From assembly GCA_046733235.1 (NCBI GenBank), contig JBKPOT010000030.1, positions 1,825-65,824 of the forward strand: a stretch of DNA of 64,000 nt, written 5' to 3'. The DNA comes from Pseudomonadota bacterium (GTDB lineage: Bacteria; Pseudomonadota; Alphaproteobacteria; Sphingomonadales; Sphingomonadaceae). Of the stretch, positions 4,104 through 42,707 are shown one piece after another; within the stretch, counting starts at the first letter, position 1; each line of letters opens with the position of its first letter. Both the position numbers and the translations under genes were made by a program. The notes beneath the pieces were generated by a model that did no database searches, was not told where the DNA came from, and saw nothing but the letters and a program-made list of their open reading frames with translations.

Positions 4104-4653
4104 GGGCTTCCGCCAGATCGCGGGGAAGGGAGGTACGCGGCTCGGCCGGCGGGTCGGCCGCGGCGGCGAGCGGCCGCTGCCACAGGCCCACGTCCCACCA
4201 GCGGCCCATCTTGTAGCCGACCCGTGCGTAGGTTCCGGCATGGGCGAAGCCGAGCCTTTCGTGGAGCCGGACGCTCGCATCGTTGGGCAGAGCGATCGCG
4301 GCGATCGCCTGGCTGAAGCCCTGCGCTTCGAGCATCGCCAGCAACGGCGCGTAGAGCCGCCGGCCCAGCCCGGACCCTTCCGCCGCCGGGCGAAGATAGA
4401 TGGTCGTCTCGACCGCGAATCGATAGGCCTCGCGCGGACGGAAGCGGGCCGCATAGGCATAGCCCGCGATCTCGCCGGCCTCGTTCACCGCCGCGAGCCA
4501 GGGATAGAGTCCCGCGCCCGCCGCCATCCGGGCGCGCATTTCCGCTTCGTCCGGCGGTTCGGTCTCGAACGAGATGTGGCTGCCGGCGACGAAGGGCGCG
4601 TAGATCTCGGCGAGGGCCGCGGCGTCGTCGGGCGTCGCGGCCCTGATCCTCAC
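4087..4653 (-). CDS. GNAT N-acetyltransferase, phosphinothricin acetyltransferase/YncA-like
   Basis: GTG start overlaps sppA stop; IRAATPDDAAALAEIY...ISFETEPP...GYAYA...GLGRRLY...NDASVRLHERLGF...GYKMGRWWDV. Confidence 0.92.
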   Translation of the reverse strand: MRIRAATPDDAAALAEIYAPFVAGSHISFETEPPDEAEMRARMAAGAGLYPWLAAVNEAGEIAGYAYAARFRPREAYRFAVETTIYLRPAAEGSGLGRRLYAPLLAMLEAQGFSQAIAAIALPNDASVRLHERLGFAHAGTYARVGYKMGRWWDVGLWQRPLAAAADPPAEPRTSLPRDLAEALSRSG

Positions 4654-6536
4654 GCCGCGAACAGCTTCAACAGCCAGGCGGCGAAGCCGTCGGCGCGGGG
4701 GCGCCGGGGAGCGCTCGCCGGGGGCGGGCACTCGAGACAGCGGACCTGGATCGAGGACCCGCCGAGCATCCTTTCGGCGTCGGTCAATGCCCGGATCAGG
4801 GTCAGCTGCGGCCCGGTGCCGATCCGGCCGAACGCGTCGCGGGCATTGGCCTGGCTGTCCTCCTCGTCATTGCCGTCGGTGGCGAGCGCCATCAGCAGAT
4901 TGTCGGCGAATCCCGGCTTCTTCTCGAGCCAGGCGACCTCGACGTCGTCGGGGTCGAGTTTCGCCCGCCGGGCCGCCTCGGCGATCGCGTCGTCGAGCCC
5001 GCCGAACGCGTCGACCAGGCCCAGCTGCCGCGCCGTGCCGCCGTCCCAGATCCGCCCCTGGGCGATCTGATCGACCCTGGCGACGGGCAGCTTGCGCGAC
5101 TGCGAGACCAGGCCGAGGAATCGCCGATAGACGCTTTCGACGCCCATTTGCAGAAGCTTCCCGGCCTCGGGCGACGGGCCGCGCAACAGGTCGGGCTCGC
5201 CGGAGAGCGGGGTGGTCTTGACGCCGTCGGCGCCGAGGCCGAGCTTGGTCATCGACCCCTGGAAGCTCGGGAGGATCCCGAACACGCCGATCGACCCGGT
5301 GATCGTGCTCGGCTCGGCATAGATCTTGTCGCCGACCGTCGACACCCAATAGCCGCCGCTCGCCGCGACATTGCCCATCGAGACGACGACCGGCAGCCCC
5401 TTCGCCTTGGCGTCGAGAATTGCATGGCGGATCCGTTCCGAGGCCAAAGCCGATCCGCCGCCCGAATCGACCCGAAGCACCAGGGCCTTGAGATTGCCGC
5501 GCTTCAGCCCCGTCTCGAGCTGCCGGACGATCGTCTCTCCGCCGGCGGTTCCGGCGGGCGCCTTGCCGTCGACGATGTCGCCGGCGACGGTCAGAACCCC
5601 GATCGCTCCATCGTCGTCGCTGGCCGGATAGGCGGCGACCCAGCGGTCGAGCTTGATCGCCCGGAACCCTTCGGGGACGTCAGAGTCGATCGTCCCGGCG
5701 ATCTCGGCGACCCGCCGGCCGAAGGCGTTGCGGTCGCCGATCCGGTCGACCAGGCCGAGCGACAAAGCGCCCTTCGCCATGTCGCCGCCGGCCGCGGCCA
5801 TGCGCGCTCCCGGATCGGCGACATAGGCCGCGATCTGCGCCTTGGGCCGGGCGCGCTTGACGTCCTGCTGCCAGCTCTCCCAGAGCTGGTCGGCGACCAC
5901 CTGGAGCGCTTCCTTCGCCTCGGGGGACATGTCGCTGCGGGTGAACGGCTCGACCGCCGCCTTGTAGGTTCCGACCCGATAGACGTTGGCGGTGATCCCG
6001 AGCTTGTCCATCAGGCCCTTGTAATAAAGGTTCGTCCCGCCCGGCCCGGAGACCAGGACCGCGCCCATCGGGTCGAGCCAGACCTCGCTGGAATGGGCGG
6101 CGAGCTGGTAGGAATCGTCGTCATAGCCGGTGGCGAAGGCGAGCACCTTCTTGTTTGCCTTGCGGACATTGTCGAGCGCTTCGCCGACGTCGGCCAAGGC
6201 GGTCTGGCCGCCCCCCGAGAAGATGTCGAGATCGAGCGCGACGACCTTGATCCGGTCGTCATCGGCCGCTTTCTCCAGAGCATGGATCACGTCGCGAAGC
6301 CGATATTCGCGGGTCCTGCCGCCGCCGCCAAACACGTCCGCCGCGGTCGCCTGGGTCGGCTGCTCGACGATCGGACCGGCGAGGTCGAGCAACAAAGCGC
6401 CATGCTCGCCCGGCCCGACGGTCGGCCGTGCCGACAGGGCCGCGAACAGCATCCCGAAGAAGCCGAGCATGAAGAGCAGGACCATGAAGTCCTTCACCCC
6501 GACGAGAAGTTTCCAGACCTTGCCCGCGAACCGCAT
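4650..6536 (-). CDS. sppA: Signal peptide peptidase SppA, 67K type
   Basis: Two S49 domains; LRVDSGGGSALASE, SMGNVAASGGYWV, ITGSIGVF, QIAQGRIWDG. Confidence 0.95.
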   Translation of the reverse strand: MRFAGKVWKLLVGVKDFMVLLFMLGFFGMLFAALSARPTVGPGEHGALLLDLAGPIVEQPTQATAADVFGGGGRTREYRLRDVIHALEKAADDDRIKVVALDLDIFSGGGQTALADVGEALDNVRKANKKVLAFATGYDDDSYQLAAHSSEVWLDPMGAVLVSGPGGTNLYYKGLMDKLGITANVYRVGTYKAAVEPFTRSDMSPEAKEALQVVADQLWESWQQDVKRARPKAQIAAYVADPGARMAAAGGDMAKGALSLGLVDRIGDRNAFGRRVAEIAGTIDSDVPEGFRAIKLDRWVAAYPASDDDGAIGVLTVAGDIVDGKAPAGTAGGETIVRQLETGLKRGNLKALVLRVDSGGGSALASERIRHAILDAKAKGLPVVVSMGNVAASGGYWVSTVGDKIYAEPSTITGSIGVFGILPSFQGSMTKLGLGADGVKTTPLSGEPDLLRGPSPEAGKLLQMGVESVYRRFLGLVSQSRKLPVARVDQIAQGRIWDGGTARQLGLVDAFGGLDDAIAEAARRAKLDPDDVEVAWLEKKPGFADNLLMALATDGNDEEDSQANARDAFGRIGTGPQLTLIRALTDAERMLGGSSIQVRCLECPPPASAPRRPRADGFAAWLLKLFAA

Positions 6537-38674: not shown

Positions 38675-39130
38675 CTAGCTGAGCTGATCGAGGACCTGGT
38701 CGTCGAGGCGGCCGGGAACGATCACCAGCGGGCAGGGCAGGGTCCCCGCCACCGCGCCCGAGAAATGGCTGACCAGAGGTCCCGGCCCACCCTCGGCGGC
38801 GGCGCCGAGGACCAGGGCGGCGATCGTGTCGCGCTCCTTGAGCAGATCGGTGATCGCCTTGATCGGATCGCCCTGGCGGACCAGGATCGCCGGCTCGAAG
38901 CCGGCTTCCTCGACGATCGCTCCGGCGGCCTGGAGCGCCATCGCCTCGGCTCGAAGCCGCGCTTCCTCCTCCATCGCCGCCTGGACTCCGCCCCATTGAA
39001 CGAATTCCTGCGGCGGGATGATCGCCAATATGTCGACCTGGCCGCCGGTCCGGGCCGCCCGGCGCGCGGCATAGCGGAGCGCCACCCGCGCCTCGCTCGT
39101 CTCGTCTATCACCACCAGATAAGACCGCAT
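38675..39130 (-). CDS. Universal stress protein
   Basis: [22 protein letters not shown]...GDP...LVLGA...GPLVSHF...CPLVIVPG. Confidence 0.92.
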
Positions 39131-39335: not shown

Positions 39336-40628
39336 ATGCCAATCGAACTCAAGATGCCCGCTCTCTCTCCGACGATGGAGGAAGGCACGCTCGCCAAATG
39401 GCTGGTCAAGGAAGGCGATACGGTCGCTGCCGGCGACCTTCTGGCCGAGATCGAGACCGACAAGGCGACCATGGAGTTCGAGGCTGTCGACGAGGGGACG
39501 ATCGCAAAGATTCTGGTCCCCGACGGCACCGACCAAGTGAAGGTCGGGACGGTGATCGCTCTGATCGCCGGTGAAGGCGAGGAGGCCGGAAGCACCGCTC
39601 CCTCGCCGCCGCCGGCGGCGAAGCAAGCGGCGCCCGCGCCGATGGCGCCGGCTTCGGAAGCGCCCAAGCCCGCCGCTCCACCCCCGGCGCCGTCTCAGCC
39701 GCAACCCAAAGCGGATCTCGGCGACCGGATCAAGGCGAGCCCGCTCGCCCGCCGCCTCGCCGAGCAGAAGGGCGTCGATCTCGGCTCGCTGACCGGCTCC
39801 GGCCCGGGCGGCCGGATCGTCAAGGCGGACATAGACGGCAGCCCCGCCGGGGCCGCCCCGGCGGGGCCGGCCGCCGCCCCGGCTCCAGCCGCGCCCCCGG
39901 CTGCGCCTGCTCCCGCACCGGTCCATGGCGCGCCGGACATCCCCCATGAAGCGGTCAAGCTCTCCAACATGCGCAAGACGATCGCGCGCCGGCTGACCGA
40001 ATCGAAGCAGCACGTTCCCCACATCTATCTGACCGTCGACATCCGGCTCGACGCTCTGCTCAAGCTTCGCGGCGAGCTGAACGCCTCGCTCGAGCCGCGC
40101 GGGGTCAAGCTCTCGGTCAACGATCTGCTGATCAAGGCGCTCGCCGCCTCGCTGATGGAAGTGCCCGAGTGCAACGTCCAATATACGGGCGACCAGCTTC
40201 TGACCTTCAAGCGCGCCGACATCTCGGTGGCGGTCTCGATTCCGAACGGCCTGATCACCCCGATCGTCAAGAGCGCGGACTCCAAGCCTGTCTCGGCGAT
40301 CGCGACCGAGATGAAGGACCTTGCCGGCCGCGCCCGCGAGGGCAAGCTCCAGCCCGAGGAATATCAGGGCGGCACCGCCAGCCTCTCCAACATGGGCATG
40401 TACGGGATCAAGCAGTTCGAGGCGGTGATCAACCCGCCGCAGGGCATGATCATGGCGATCGGCGCCGGCGAGAAGCGCCCCTATGTGATCGACGACAGCC
40501 TCCAGATCGCCACGGTGATGAGCGCCACCGGAAGCTTCGACCATCGCGCCATCGACGGCGCCGACGGCGCCCGGCTGATGCAGGCGTTCAAACGGCTGGT
40601 CGAGGCGCCTCTGGGGATGCTGGCGTAA
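39336..40628 (+). CDS. pdhC: Pyruvate dehydrogenase E2, dihydrolipoamide acetyltransferase
   Basis: [16 protein letters not shown] lipoyl Lys, KASPLARR E3-binding domain, FDHRAIDGA. Confidence 0.97.
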
Positions 40629-40633
40629 TTTGA

Positions 40634-41332
40634 ATGGCAAATGCTCTGAAGAATTTCCTTGATGAAACGACTGATTTGGCTCGTGTTCACATCTATCTTT
40701 ACGACGCACTTGAAGTACATCCAGACTATGTCACGGCGGGGTTAGGCGAAAAGAGCCAGCTCGAAAAGCTCAAGGATATGGATACAGAGGAAAAGGAGAA
40801 ACTCTTGGTTCTACTAAGGAATCAAGCGAAGGCCAGAGAATTGGTTACGAAACTTTTTCAGCTTCACATAATTGCCTCCTTCGAAGTGTTTATTAGCGAG
40901 ACAATTGACTGGATATTCCAAACAGATGAGCGGACTTTGAATGCTTATGTTGATCGGAAAGTACGGGACATATTTGCGGTATCCACGCTAGATGAGCTTA
41001 AGGAGTCTATAAGAGAGAGATTAACTCATGACCTAATGTTTCTGCCGATCGATGAAATGGTAACAAAACTTAAGAAAAACCATGGAGTCGAGATACTAGG
41101 CTATTATGAAATGATCTATGTACGATATCTGTTTAGTCACCGTAACTTGTGGCTTCATAACCGAGGCATCGTGGACCGCAATTTCTTGAGGTCCACCAAA
41201 TCTAAACAGCGTCGTGGATCTGTTGTGCGTAATCTCAAGATTGCTCCCATTTTTTCGGAGCTCCAGAGGATTGCAAAATTGGTCGATGCGAGGACGCGGC
41301 AGCATTTTGCAAAGGAAGAAAAGAGTGTCTGA
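40634..41332 (+). CDS. AT-rich hypothetical protein with a HEPN RNase motif (R-x4-H)
   Basis: IASFEVFISE and HRNLWLHNRGIVD; sampled lines about 38-40% GC; stop overlaps the lpdA start. Confidence 0.8.
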   Translation: MANALKNFLDETTDLARVHIYLYDALEVHPDYVTAGLGEKSQLEKLKDMDTEEKEKLLVLLRNQAKARELVTKLFQLHIIASFEVFISETIDWIFQTDERTLNAYVDRKVRDIFAVSTLDELKESIRERLTHDLMFLPIDEMVTKLKKNHGVEILGYYEMIYVRYLFSHRNLWLHNRGIVDRNFLRSTKSKQRRGSVVRNLKIAPIFSELQRIAKLVDARTRQHFAKEEKSV

Positions 41333-42707
41333 TATCTACGACCTGATCGTTCTCGGCTCCGGGCCGGGCGGCTATGTCGCCGCGATCCGGGCGTCGCAAC
41401 TCGGCCTGAAGACCGCGATCGTCGAGCGCGAGAAACTCGGCGGGATCTGCCTCAACTGGGGCTGCATTCCGACAAAGGCCCTGCTCCGTACCTCCGAGAT
41501 CAACCATTATCTCACCCACGCCGCCGCCTACGGGCTCAGCGCCGAGAAGACAGGCTTCGACCTTTCGAAGATCGTCGAACGATCGCGCAAGGTCGCCGGC
41601 CAGCTCAATGCCGGCGTCAAGGGGCTGATGAAGAAGAACAAGGTGACGGTCGTCGAAGGCGACGGAGCGATCACGGGGAAGGGGAAGCTGACCGTCAGCA
41701 AGGACGGCGCCAGGACCGAGCTTCAGGCCAAGCATATCATCATCGCGACCGGCGCCCGCGCCCGGGATCTCCCGTTCGCCAAGGCCGACGGCAAGAGGAT
41801 CTGGACCTACCGCCACGCCATGGTCCCCGCCGAGATGCCGACCAGATTGCTGGTGATCGGCTCGGGCGCGATCGGGGTCGAGTTCGCAAGCTTCTATTCG
41901 GACATGGGCGCCGAAGTGACCATCGTCGAGATGCTCGACCGGATCCTCCCGGTCGAGGACGAGGACGTCTCCGCCTTCGTCCACAAGGCGCTCGTCAAGC
42001 AGGGCATGAAGATCCACGTCTCGTCGGGAGTCGACAGGCTCGAGGCGGGGTTGGACGGGGTCAAGGCGACCCTCAAAGGCGGCGCGGTCGAGACCTATTC
42101 GCACGCCATCGTCGCCATCGGAATCGTCCCCAACAGCGAGAATATCGGCCTCGAGGCGTTGGGTGTTAAGACCGACCGCGGCCACATAATCGTCGACGGT
42201 TTTGCCCGCACCAATGTCGAGGGCATCTATGCGATCGGCGACGTCACCGGTCCGCCCTGGCTTGCGCACAAAGCGAGCCACGAGGGCGTGGTCTGCGTCG
42301 AGGCGATCGCCGGCAAGAAGCCGCACCCGTTCGAGACCTGGAACATCCCGGGCTGCACTTACTCACGCCCGCAGGTCGCCTCGGTCGGACTCACCGAGGC
42401 CAAGGCGAAGGAGAATGGCCGAAAGATCAAGGTCGGCAAATTCCCGTTCATCGGCAACGGCAAGGCGATCGCTCTCGGCGAGGCCGAGGGCTTCATCAAG
42501 ACCGTGTTCGACGAGGCGACCGGCGAACTGCTCGGCGCCCATATGGTCGGCGCCGAGGTCACCGAGCTTATCCAGGGCTATGCGATCGCCCGCCAGCTCG
42601 AGACCACCGAGGCCGAGCTGATGCACACGGTGTTCCCGCACCCCACATTGAGCGAAATGATGCATGAAAGCGTACTCGACGCCTATGGAAGGGCGCTGCA
42701 TTATTGA
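41325..42707 (+). CDS. lpdA: Dihydrolipoyl dehydrogenase (E3) of PDH
   Basis: GTG start; GSGPGGYVAAI, GGICLNWGCIP, FPHPTLSE. Confidence 0.97.
   Translation: MSDIYDLIVLGSGPGGYVAAIRASQLGLKTAIVEREKLGGICLNWGCIPTKALLRTSEINHYLTHAAAYGLSAEKTGFDLSKIVERSRKVAGQLNAGVKGLMKKNKVTVVEGDGAITGKGKLTVSKDGARTELQAKHIIIATGARARDLPFAKADGKRIWTYRHAMVPAEMPTRLLVIGSGAIGVEFASFYSDMGAEVTIVEMLDRILPVEDEDVSAFVHKALVKQGMKIHVSSGVDRLEAGLDGVKATLKGGAVETYSHAIVAIGIVPNSENIGLEALGVKTDRGHIIVDGFARTNVEGIYAIGDVTGPPWLAHKASHEGVVCVEAIAGKKPHPFETWNIPGCTYSRPQVASVGLTEAKAKENGRKIKVGKFPFIGNGKAIALGEAEGFIKTVFDEATGELLGAHMVGAEVTELIQGYAIARQLETTEAELMHTVFPHPTLSEMMHESVLDAYGRALHY

What the first reader, a model, noticed from the sequence alone, without database searches (positions are those of the whole stretch)
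40634..41332. Foreign standalone HEPN-motif gene embedded in the pdhC-lpdA operon: candidate anti-phage RNase
Seen: a 232-aa ORF at about 38-40% GC (24/60 in 40801-40860; 23/60 in 40981-41040) against 43/60 in the adjacent pdhC line 40561-40620. It starts 5 nt after the pdhC stop, its stop overlaps the lpdA GTG, and the lpdA RBS (AAGGAAG) lies inside it. It carries SFEVF and RNLWLH (R-x4-H) followed by NRGIVD. There is no antitoxin, promoter, transposase or terminal repeat. Established: E...R-x4-H is the HEPN RNase active site; HEPN proteins act in abortive infection and toxin systems, and some families sit in housekeeping operons. Inference: a horizontally acquired single-gene defence effector, constitutively expressed and hard to lose because lpdA translation starts within it.
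Basis: partly seen in the sequence, partly recalled or inferred. Interest (0 to 1): 0.8.

Follow-up and report, generated by a model that had tools for sequence, protein, structure and literature searches.

The report
HEPN-like gene inside pyruvate dehydrogenase operon
A small AT-rich gene wedged between two pyruvate dehydrogenase genes belongs to an unnamed family of probable RNA-cutting (HEPN) proteins; one branch of that family always sits at this spot in sphingomonads and is swapped between close relatives, as conflict or defence genes are, but no function has been tested.

Summary
A 232-aa ORF (40634-41332) with GC 0.43 lies between pdhC and lpdA (GC 0.64-0.68). It starts 5 nt after the pdhC stop and overlaps the lpdA GTG by 8 nt.

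It matches no Pfam, NCBIfam, PADLOC or PHROG model. Exhaustive HMMER found about 106 distant relatives in which R170 and H175 are invariant and N171 is near-invariant (RNxxxHNRG). One relative passes Pfam's cut-off for HEPN_RiboL-PSP. AlphaFold (pLDDT 90) gives an all-helical protein with the motif at a helix end. Foldseek found no solved HEPN structure, so the fold test is open.

It is not a one-off insertion. All 11 members with known context (window included) of one branch of the family lie between pdhC and lpdA in Sphingomonadales. All are AT-rich. Two near-identical hosts (flanking proteins 99% identical) carry alleles only 48% identical, with sharp gene-edge boundaries. In 21 congeners the same gap is empty (3) or holds other cargo, including PIN toxin-antitoxin pairs.

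Best reading: an operon-embedded, recombination-exchanged HEPN RNase toxin or defence effector. The anti-phage role is inferred only. This scan earlier noted toxin-antitoxin pairs at PDH junctions in other alphaproteobacteria.

The parts
38675..39130 (-). Usp (universal stress protein) gene, conserved upstream neighbour of the PDH genes
   Evidence: ORF. The same Usp-pdhC arrangement, with Pfam PF00582, is seen in L101, L114, L115, L116 and L117.
39339..40628 (+). pdhC (E2, dihydrolipoamide acetyltransferase). The start is inferred at [13 protein letters not shown]; the stop is TAA 40626-40628.
   Evidence: It is 78-88% nt identical to congeners. Orthologues carry Biotin_lipoyl/E3_binding/2-oxoacid_dh domains.
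40629..40633 (+). 5-nt spacer (TTTGA) between the pdhC stop and the ORF start; left edge of the cargo
   Evidence: In all 21 congener junctions, homology ends exactly at the pdhC stop codon.
40634..41332 (+). 232-aa HEPN-like ORF (P0001), AT-rich, an outlying relative of Pfam HEPN_RiboL-PSP
40865..40906 (+). Conserved helix-2 block (residues 78-91, HIIASFEVFISETI), with E84 and E89 as candidate upstream acidic residues
   Evidence: Column counts: E84 in 21 of 101, D81 in 71 of 101 of the other sub-type, E/D89 in 77 of 101. E84 aligns with the RiboL-PSP Glu.
41141..41167 (+). Predicted catalytic motif R170-N-L-W-L-H175-N-R-G178
   Evidence: R170 and H175 are invariant in 101 sequences; R170, N171 and H175 are invariant in the 56-sequence alignment. 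Other counts: N171 95/101, N176 89/101, R177 77/101, G178 89/101. The motif lies at the C-terminal end of helix 157-176 in the pLDDT-90 model.
41312..41318 (+). AAGGAAG, the likely Shine-Dalgarno sequence of lpdA, inside the ORF's last codons
   Evidence: sequence read directly.
41325..42707 (+). lpdA (E3, dihydrolipoyl dehydrogenase). It has a GTG start overlapping the ORF by 8 nt. Its first four codons (VSDI) differ from the MAD[TQS] of congeners.
   Evidence: It is 77-86% nt identical to congeners.

Best explanation
The ORF encodes a standalone, all-helical protein of the HEPN superfamily. It belongs to an unnamed family at the edge of Pfam HEPN_RiboL-PSP. By analogy with characterised HEPN enzymes, it would act as a metal-independent RNase, with R170, N171 and H175 (and probably E84) forming the active site.

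It is not a random insertion. It belongs, or is closest, to a family branch that lives only in the pdhC-lpdA gap of Sphingomonadales PDH operons. There it is co-transcribed and translationally coupled with its neighbours. It stays AT-rich, and homologous recombination through the highly conserved flanking genes replaces it with very different alleles.

The most likely role is a latent toxin of the abortive-infection or defence type, or a purely selfish addiction toxin. It would be kept at a low level by poor codon adaptation and activated by an unknown trigger.

Shown here: gene anatomy, motif invariance, family distribution, slot fidelity and allele replacement. Inferred: RNase activity, dimeric active site, low expression, trigger and anti-phage effect.
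For: Homology and motif:
- Exhaustive HMMER finds 106 relatives at E <= 1e-3. R170 and H175 are invariant and N171 near-invariant.
- Members weakly hit many independent HEPN profiles: PF18735 in 6 of 101, one of them above Pfam's cut-off (29.6 against 28.4 bits); PADLOC RTasHEPN in 19 of 101; HepT in 2; Cas13, Csx1 and Cthe2314 as singles.

Structure:
- The AF2 model has pLDDT 90.1 and pTM 0.87. It is all alpha, with the motif at the end of a helix followed by a loop. HEPN helix-3 is described this way in PMC3710099.

Accessory status:
- Not found in 24 congeners; 3 of those have empty sites.
- Found in 9 of 401 genomes of the order.

Slot fidelity:
- 11 of 11 branch members with known context (window included) lie between pdhC and lpdA.
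- The tree that forces P0001 into that branch has a log-likelihood 31.7 higher than the free quick tree; AU p = 0.75.

Allele replacement:
- G581 and metagenome contig L123 share 99% identical pdhC and lpdA proteins and 90-100% nt identity in the flanks.
- Their HEPN genes are 48% identical at the protein level and about 50-65% at the nucleotide level. The drop falls exactly at the gene borders.

Composition and context:
- Slot genes have GC3 0.41-0.55 against 0.68-0.92 in the flanks. Co-resident TM74 and 4HBT genes have native GC.
- The same gap holds PIN_2 toxin-antitoxin pairs in 3 congeners and an IS1595 transposase in 1.
- Elsewhere the family sits in an integrase-flanked island, beside RteC/HTH_17, and on plasmids.
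Against: - The ORF itself matches no HEPN model or any other model.
- Foldseek against the PDB gave no hit better than E 0.66 and no HEPN chain among the top 50.
- Profile-profile comparison with 13 genuine PF18735 proteins reached a probability of only 15% or less.
- The ORF lacks the D81/N82 of most family members.
- Its placement in the slot branch is not secure. The free tree put it, on a long branch, with non-slot members that share the 'FExF' motif.
- Neighbours of 45 non-slot members are mostly ordinary genes. Only about 6 of 91 are of mobilome or defence type.
- No family member was found in 50,697 phage records.
- There is no expression, toxicity or phage data.
Confidence: 0.55

Rival explanations
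1. A purely selfish addiction or toxin element with no defence role. The HEPN toxin persists because it is embedded in an essential operon, with lpdA translation starting inside it, or because it is paired with an unrecognised neutralising factor. It spreads by recombination through conserved flanks.
For: - Toxin-antitoxin pairs (PIN_2 plus antitoxin) occupy the same gap in 3 congeners.
- The lpdA Shine-Dalgarno sequence and start lie inside the ORF.
- Earlier scan notes report toxin-antitoxin pairs at PDH junctions in other alphaproteobacteria (unchecked leads).
- No defence-system model matches.
Against: - No antitoxin candidate lies next to any of the 11 slot members. The co-resident TM74 and 4HBT genes have native GC, and a small membrane-protein gene (TM69) occupies the same post-pdhC position in 9 congeners that lack the HEPN gene.
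- The frequency is very low (9 of 401 genomes), which is odd for an element that is hard to lose.
- Allele replacement between near-identical hosts fits diversifying or frequency-dependent selection better than simple addiction.
Confidence: 0.2
2. An accessory RNase dedicated to the PDH operon. It would process the polycistronic pdh transcript, or bind E2/E3, to tune the relative output of pdhC and lpdA in some sphingomonads.
For: - Strict positional conservation between pdhC and lpdA in 11 of 11 branch members.
- Translational coupling on both sides.
- HEPN domains also serve in RNA processing (PMC3710099).
Against: - Present in only about 1-2% of sampled Sphingomonadales and in none of 24 congeners.
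- Alleles only 48% identical sit in hosts whose PDH proteins are 99% identical.
- The gene is persistently AT-rich and poorly codon-adapted.
- The rest of the family sits in unrelated places, including plasmids and islands.
Confidence: 0.1
3. Not a nuclease. It would be a helical protein of another fold whose conserved RNxxxHNRG block serves binding or structure, and the HEPN resemblance is convergent.
For: - Foldseek finds no HEPN structure.
- hhalign probability is 15% or less.
- Most profile hits are 12-22 bits and centred on the motif helix.
- R-x4-H is common by chance.
Against: - Invariance of R and H, plus a polar residue after R, across about 100 sequences at 17-30% identity.
- One member exceeds Pfam's curated cut-off over profile positions 23-163 of 191, and another aligns over 7-190 of 191.
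- Weak hits fall repeatedly on HEPN families, whereas non-HEPN hits are singletons.
- The motif sits at a helix end, as in HEPN helix-3.
Confidence: 0.12

Closest known systems
Pfam PF18735 HEPN_RiboL-PSP ('Ribo L-PSP-HEPN' of Anantharaman et al. 2013, PMC3710099)
   Same: - An R-N-x3-H motif followed two or three residues later by Gly.
- A conserved Glu in the preceding long helix, aligning with E84.
- An all-helical protein of about 200 aa.
- One family member (P0106) passes the Pfam cut-off, and five others score 16-22 bits.
   Different: - The ORF itself gives no hit.
- Profile-profile probability is 15% or less.
- There is no fusion to endoRNase L-PSP and no ParB neighbour, the contexts the paper lists.
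- The signature is extended to HNRG[IV][VI]N.
- A branch is tied to the pdhC-lpdA gap.
AbiD/AbiF-type (Abi_2) abortive-infection HEPN proteins
   Same: - Standalone HEPN proteins implicated in phage abortive infection.
- The paper calls RiboL-PSP-HEPN distantly related to them.
   Different: - No Abi_2 hit for the ORF or in the member tally.
- No plasmid or lactococcal context. The relationship was not tested further here.
HepT/MntA type VII toxin-antitoxin systems (HEPN toxin with MNT nucleotidyltransferase antitoxin)
   Same: - A HEPN Rx4H toxin logic.
- Earlier scan notes place HepT/MntA pairs at the same PDH junction in other alphaproteobacteria.
- 2 of 101 members weakly hit the HepT model.
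   Different: - No MNT or any other partner gene beside any slot member.
- The protein is longer, with an N-terminal helical extension.
Defence or cargo hotspots between conserved core genes (from my own knowledge of defence-island and integration-hotspot literature; not checked in a paper here)
   Same: - A fixed position flanked by conserved core genes, with variable cargo among close relatives.
- Empty sites occur.
- Toxin-antitoxin genes and an IS element are among the cargo.
- Allele replacement has sharp borders.
   Different: - The slot lies inside an operon, between two translationally coupled genes of one enzyme complex.
- It usually holds only one to three small genes.
- No integrase or att repeats are present in the window.
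PADLOC PDLC03820 'RTasHEPN' (HEPN model filed under DRT systems)
   Same: 19 of 101 family members match it around the Rx4H helix.
   Different: - Scores are only 12-15 bits in the members whose hits were inspected in detail; the best E among all 101 was 4.1e-5, with bits not shown.
- The ORF itself does not match.
- No reverse transcriptase was seen among the domain families tallied for neighbours or in the contexts inspected.

Membership tests
HEPN superfamily | Conserved Rx4-6H motif | tested here: met
   R170 and H175 are invariant in 101 sequences. R170, N171 and H175 are invariant in 56 sequences.
HEPN superfamily | Polar residue immediately after the conserved Arg | tested here: met
   N171 in 95 of 101 and H in the other 6. 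The feature is defined in PMC3710099.
HEPN superfamily | Conserved acidic residue upstream, in helix-2 | tested here: inconclusive
   E84 is present in the ORF but in only 21 of 101 members. D81 is present in 71 of 101 of the other sub-type, and E/D89 in 77 of 101. E84 aligns with the RiboL-PSP Glu.
HEPN superfamily | [quoted passage not shown] | tested here: inconclusive
   The AF2 model (pLDDT 90.1) is all alpha. The motif lies at the end of helix 157-176, and helices 119-150 lie between the two conserved helices. However, Foldseek against the PDB gave no HEPN hit, best E 0.66.
HEPN superfamily | Metal-independent RNase activity dependent on R and H | not testable with these tools
   Needs biochemistry.
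Pfam PF18735 HEPN_RiboL-PSP | Score at or above the gathering cut-off (28.4 bits) | tested here: not met
   The ORF gives no hit even at E <= 10. The relative P0106 scores 29.6 bits, and five other members score 16.6-21.8 bits.
Pfam PF18735 HEPN_RiboL-PSP | Fusion to endoRNase L-PSP or an operon with ParB (contexts listed in PMC3710099) | tested here: not met
   No such neighbour in the window or among 91 neighbours of family members.
HepT/MntA type VII toxin-antitoxin | Adjacent MNT nucleotidyltransferase antitoxin gene | tested here: not met
   pdhC and lpdA are the direct neighbours. No MNT gene lies beside any slot member.
Two-gene toxin-antitoxin module (generic) | A small partner gene conserved next to the toxin | tested here: not met
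   No recurrent domain family among the immediate neighbours of 45 non-slot members. There is none in the window.
Catalogued anti-phage defence system (PADLOC 2.0) | Match to a defence-system protein model | tested here: not met
   0 families for the ORF. Members give only weak RTasHEPN hits.
PDH-slot branch of the family (defined here) | Gene located between pdhC and lpdA, and AT-rich relative to its flanks | tested here: met
   Window. Ten other members.
PDH-slot branch of the family (defined here) | Phylogenetic placement inside the branch | tested here: inconclusive
   The free quick tree places the ORF elsewhere on a long branch. The constrained tree is 31.7 log-likelihood units better, with AU p = 0.75. 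The top two phmmer hits (P0002, P0003) are branch members.

The most novel reading that the evidence does not exclude
Sphingomonadales keep a dedicated intra-operon 'cassette slot' between pdhC and lpdA. One lineage of HEPN RNases has specialised to live there. It is carried from genome to genome by recombination through the conserved PDH genes and maintained as many old, very different alleles. It is held AT-rich by selection, for example to throttle its own translation or to make its own mRNA the preferred substrate. Its position could also couple the effector's dose or activation to central-carbon status or to phage takeover of transcription.
Probability: 0.2. Interest if true: 0.8.

Novelty: new variant of a known kind. 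Interest (0 to 1): 0.62.

Why it matters
If the protein is an active HEPN RNase, three things follow.
- It adds an unnamed standalone family to the toxin and defence repertoire. About 100 clusters at 50% identity were found across at least six phyla.
- It shows that a conflict gene can be housed inside an essential metabolic operon, rather than in a defence island or mobile element.
- It offers a clean natural system: one gene, fixed flanks, empty sites and highly divergent alleles in near-identical hosts. This could be used to ask how toxin-like genes are kept, exchanged and kept harmless.

Together with earlier scan notes of toxin-antitoxin pairs at PDH junctions in other alphaproteobacteria, it points to a general, undescribed preference of such genes for PDH operon junctions. 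I found no paper describing this.

Tried and rejected
- Direct profile scans of the ORF (Pfam, NCBIfam, PADLOC) gave nothing. PHROGs was scanned through alignment A1, whose first member is the ORF; it had 0 families.
- The word-indexed homologue search found only the ORF itself. PDB sequence searches with the ORF and with three profiles gave only noise.
- The first AlphaFold run, with an 11-sequence alignment, was unusable (pLDDT 54).
- Foldseek against BFVD gave one significant hit, to an uncharacterised siphovirus protein. It is not informative.
- hhalign against 13 genuine PF18735 proteins gave weak results.
- I searched for a conserved partner gene around 45 non-slot members and found none.
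- tblastn against phage records found nothing.
- Rfam found nothing. Promoter, terminator and repeat scans found nothing on the coding strand.
- I considered and rejected a one-off insertion from a low-GC donor. The same family branch occupies the same gap in at least eight other sphingomonad genomes or contigs.
- I considered vertical inheritance with fast divergence. It was rejected as the sole process, because hosts with 99% identical flanking proteins carry alleles only 48% identical, with gene-sharp borders.
Full report
**1. The observation**

The window holds a 232-aa ORF at 40634-41332 on the + strand.
- The pdhC stop (TAA, 40626-40628) lies 5 nt before its ATG.
- Its TGA (41330-41332) lies 8 nt inside lpdA, which starts at GTG 41325 (VSDIYDLIVLGSGPGGY).
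- The purine tract AAGGAAG (41312-41318) is inside the ORF.
- GC falls to 0.38-0.44 within the ORF, against 0.60-0.78 on either side.
- GC3 is 0.46, against 0.86 in pdhC and 0.87 in lpdA.
- Codon adaptation to the neighbouring genes is 0.26, against 0.63-0.75, and a quarter of its codons are rare.
- No promoter-like or terminator-like site lies on the coding strand between 38600 and 43000.
- There are no flanking repeats beyond chance, no Rfam match, and no transposase or small partner ORF.

One caution applies. R-x4-H occurs in half of all shuffles of this protein, so the motif carries weight only through conservation.

**2. What the protein is**

The ORF matches nothing in Pfam, NCBIfam or PADLOC. 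The word-indexed search of 5.8 billion proteins found only the ORF itself.

An exhaustive HMMER pass over 1.84 billion cluster representatives found 106 relatives. E-values ran from 5e-10 to 1e-3 and identity from 17% to 34%.

In the 101-sequence alignment:
- R170 and H175 are invariant.
- N171 is present in 95 of 101, and N176, R177 and G178 in 77-89 of 101.
- The family signature is RN[LIV][IL][VA]HNRG[IV][VI]N.

The E of SFEVF (E84) is shared by only 21 members. Most others have D81-N82 one turn earlier, and E/D89 is present in 77.

Family members hit HEPN profiles repeatedly, while non-HEPN hits are singletons:
- PF18735 HEPN_RiboL-PSP in 6 members.
- PADLOC RTasHEPN in 19.
- HepT in 2.
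- Cthe2314, Cas13 and Csx1 once each.

Most of these hits are weak, at 12-22 bits. P0106 is the exception. It scores 29.6 bits on PF18735, above Pfam's 28.4-bit cut-off, over profile positions 23-163 of 191. P0099 aligns over positions 7-190. P0106 aligns with the ORF at 28% identity over 134 residues (pairwise E 8e-11). SFEVF pairs with SFENF, and HRNLWLHNRG pairs with RRNLILHNDG.

AlphaFold2 with a 56-sequence alignment gives pLDDT 90.1 and pTM 0.87. The protein is all helical, and the motif sits at the C-terminal end of helix 157-176, followed by a loop. The HEPN survey places Rx4-6H in the same position (end of helix-3), with the acidic residue in helix-2 and an insert between helices 2 and 3 (PMC3710099).

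Against this:
- Foldseek found no HEPN chain in the PDB. The best E was 0.66.
- hhalign against 13 genuine PF18735 proteins gave a probability of 15% or less.

I therefore file the protein as a probable HEPN-superfamily member, at about 0.8. It belongs to an unnamed family bordering RiboL-PSP-HEPN. It is not a member of PF18735.

**3. Where the family lives**

A genome scan found 49 loci in Acidobacteriota, Chloroflexota, Actinomycetota, Bacteroidota, Pseudomonadota and others.
- The gene is standalone.
- The 91 immediate neighbours of 45 members share no recurrent domain. They include two integrases, two RES toxins, one Pycsar-type TIR and one primase-polymerase domain, among ordinary genes.
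- Individual members lie in an integrase-flanked island of unknown genes (Pseudoxanthomonas), beside RteC/HTH_17 (Formosa), among metabolic genes, and on plasmids of Parageobacillus, Rhodococcus and Nostoc, always annotated 'hypothetical'.
- None was found in phage records.
- In 46 of 48 loci the gene has lower GC than its flanks, with a median difference of -0.08.

**4. The slot**

In 24 same-genus genomes the ORF was not found, but the pdhC-lpdA gap is hypervariable. Of the 21 gaps assessed (20 congeners plus the window):

| Gap content | Genomes |
|---|---|
| Empty (-4 to 12 nt) | 3 |
| Conserved 69-aa membrane protein | 9 |
| PIN_2 toxin with a small antitoxin-like gene (Pfam 1e-25) | 3 |
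| SH3_3 secreted protein | 3 |
| 185-aa membrane protein | 3 |
| IS1595 transposase within 3.7 kb of cargo | 1 |
| Unrecognised genes | 5 |
| HEPN-family gene | window only |

Some genomes hold more than one cargo type, so the rows overlap.

Homology with relatives stops exactly at the pdhC stop codon. It resumes at codon 5 of lpdA.

**5. The slot is home to a branch of this family**

Every member with known context (window included) of a 19-sequence branch lies between pdhC and lpdA of a sphingomonad:
- Sphingorhabdus MAG.
- G534 and G581.
- Sphingomonas sp. CJ20, Sphingopyxis sp. LC81, Erythrobacter sp. SAORIC-644 and a metagenome scaffold.
- Three short contigs. One is binned as Flammeovirgaceae, but its 842 bases begin with a 2-oxoacid_dh tail.

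Counting the window, that is 11 of 11. All have GC 0.39-0.47 (GC3 0.41-0.55 in the six measured), against flank GC3 of 0.68-0.92. Co-resident genes (a 74-aa membrane protein and a 4HBT thioesterase) have native composition.

The ORF's own place in the tree is uncertain.
- The free quick tree puts it on a long branch with non-slot 'FExF' members.
- The tree that forces it into the slot branch has a log-likelihood 31.7 higher and is not rejected (AU p = 0.75).
- Its two best phmmer hits, P0002 and P0003, belong to that branch.

In a sample of 401 genomes of the order, 9 have any family member and 3 have one in the slot.

**6. Exchange of alleles**

G581 and metagenome contig L123 have pdhC and lpdA proteins that are 99% identical, yet their HEPN genes are 48% identical.

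Along the nucleotide alignment, identity is mostly 85-100% in pdhC, the small membrane gene, the 4HBT gene and lpdA, apart from a short dip to 63-80% around the junction of the small membrane gene and the 4HBT gene. It drops to about 48-67% exactly over the HEPN gene (L123 1939-2613) and recovers at lpdA's first codons. Erythrobacter and G534 show the same pattern: lpdA 93%, HEPN 61%.

This is replacement of the gene by a distant allele, not in-place divergence. Across all pairs, HEPN identity still rises with lpdA identity (Spearman 0.63; the pairs are not independent), so exchange seems to occur mostly among relatives.

The window's 3' junction (GCAAAG-GAAGAAAAG-AGTGTCTGAT, protein ending AKEEKSV) resembles the Erythrobacter HEPN-to-4HBT junction (GCAAAGAGTGTCTGAT, protein ending AKSV, with the next gene starting GTGTCTGAT). 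This may mean that lpdA here inherited the start of a deleted 4HBT gene. That is an inference from 18 shared bases.

**7. How it most likely works**

Shown:
- The gene is a tightly embedded, probably co-transcribed and translationally coupled passenger of the PDH operon.
- It carries an intact, invariant HEPN-type motif.
- It is accessory.
- It belongs to, or next to, a lineage bound to this slot and exchanged as divergent alleles.

Inferred from what is established for HEPN enzymes (PMC3710099):
- A metal-independent RNase, with H175 as the catalytic base and R170/N171 stabilising the transition state. It probably acts as a dimer.

Inferred from context:
- Patchy distribution, AT-richness, allele turnover, toxin-antitoxin cargo in the same gap, and mobile-element contexts elsewhere suggest a latent toxin. 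It would be used in abortive infection or defence, or simply in its own maintenance.
- Its dose would be limited by poor codon adaptation.

The trigger, the RNA target and any neutralising mechanism are unknown. I put the whole chain at about 0.55, HEPN identity alone at about 0.8, and a genuinely anti-phage role at about 0.4-0.45.

**8. Rivals**

| Rival reading | Confidence | Main point against |
|---|---|---|
| Selfish addiction toxin | 0.2 | No partner gene in any slot member; very low frequency |
| PDH-specific RNA-processing factor | 0.1 | Presence in only 1-2% of genomes; 48%-identical alleles in hosts with 99%-identical PDH proteins |
| Non-nuclease helical protein | 0.12 | Motif invariance; the Pfam-passing relative |

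**9. Comparison with what is known, and novelty**

The closest named family is Pfam HEPN_RiboL-PSP, which the survey paper calls a distant relative of AbiD/AbiF. That family is described as fused to L-PSP or next to ParB. Neither context applies here.

I found no paper on a HEPN gene in a pdh operon or on cargo between pdhC and lpdA.

Two earlier notes of this scan, on other genomes, report toxin-antitoxin pairs, including HepT/MntA, wedged into PDH operon junctions of other alphaproteobacteria. I did not re-examine those genomes. I did confirm PIN_2 pairs in this gap in three congeners. The general phenomenon was therefore seen before in this scan.

New here:
- An unnamed standalone HEPN family.
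- A family branch faithful to the slot.
- Its persistent AT-richness.
- Direct evidence of allele replacement.

I rate it a new variant of a known kind, with interest 0.62.

Noticed in passing
L118 (G020:C185) about 664-780 and 1494-1605: A same-genus genome carries a direct duplication of the last ~110 bp of its own pdhC (97% identical, reading ...[30 protein letters not shown]). The second copy starts about 720 bp downstream of the gene's end, so about 700 bp of inserted DNA lies between the copies. This looks like the footprint of an element that integrated into, or recombined at, the 3' end of pdhC.
   Followed up: partly
L107 (G581) against L123 (metagenome contig), L123 1939-2613: Two hosts with 99% identical pdhC and lpdA proteins carry HEPN alleles only 48% identical. 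Nucleotide identity falls from 90-100% to about 50-65% exactly at the gene's borders.
   Followed up: yes
window 41300-41335 against L116 (Erythrobacter) 4640-4690: The window's HEPN-to-lpdA junction (…GCAAAGGAAGAAAAGAGTGTCTGAT) nearly matches the Erythrobacter HEPN-to-4HBT junction (…GCAAAGAGTGTCTGAT). Both proteins end in AK..SV, and both downstream genes start GTG TCT GAT (VSD). The window's lpdA may have acquired the start of a deleted thioesterase gene.
   Followed up: partly
L025 (G010) oriented coordinates 526-1065; L023 (G011) 303-719: Other low-GC orphans sit in the same gap in congeners. One is a 179-aa protein (GC 0.49) with an N-terminal membrane helix; the other is a 138-aa membrane protein (GC 0.57). 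Neither has a Pfam match.
   Followed up: partly
L019, L020, L030 (G013, G008, G023), pdhC-lpdA gap: A PIN_2 toxin (Pfam 1e-25) with an 87-96-aa antitoxin-like gene lies in the same gap, downstream of the conserved 69-aa membrane protein, in three congeners.
   Followed up: yes
L120, L121, L122 (G613, G392, G384): Three genomes of the same taxonomic family (f1) hold longer members of the protein family (481, 513 and 285 aa), with extra N- and C-terminal parts. Their stronger matches came from loci showing no pdhC or lpdA motif nearby. Their architecture and context were not examined.
   Followed up: no
L125 (GCA_046087185.1, JBJTZJ010009727.1, 842 bp): A contig binned as Flammeovirgaceae begins with a GC-0.70 2-oxoacid_dh tail typical of sphingomonad pdhC, followed by a slot-branch HEPN gene. 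It is probably a mis-binned sphingomonad fragment.
   Followed up: partly
model md90fbd95b86d against BFVD: The only significant structural neighbour is an uncharacterised protein of an uncultured siphovirus (A0A8S5NVI2; E 4.9e-4, TM 0.56 on the query). A second phage protein has probability 0.96. Their sequences could not be examined here.
   Followed up: no
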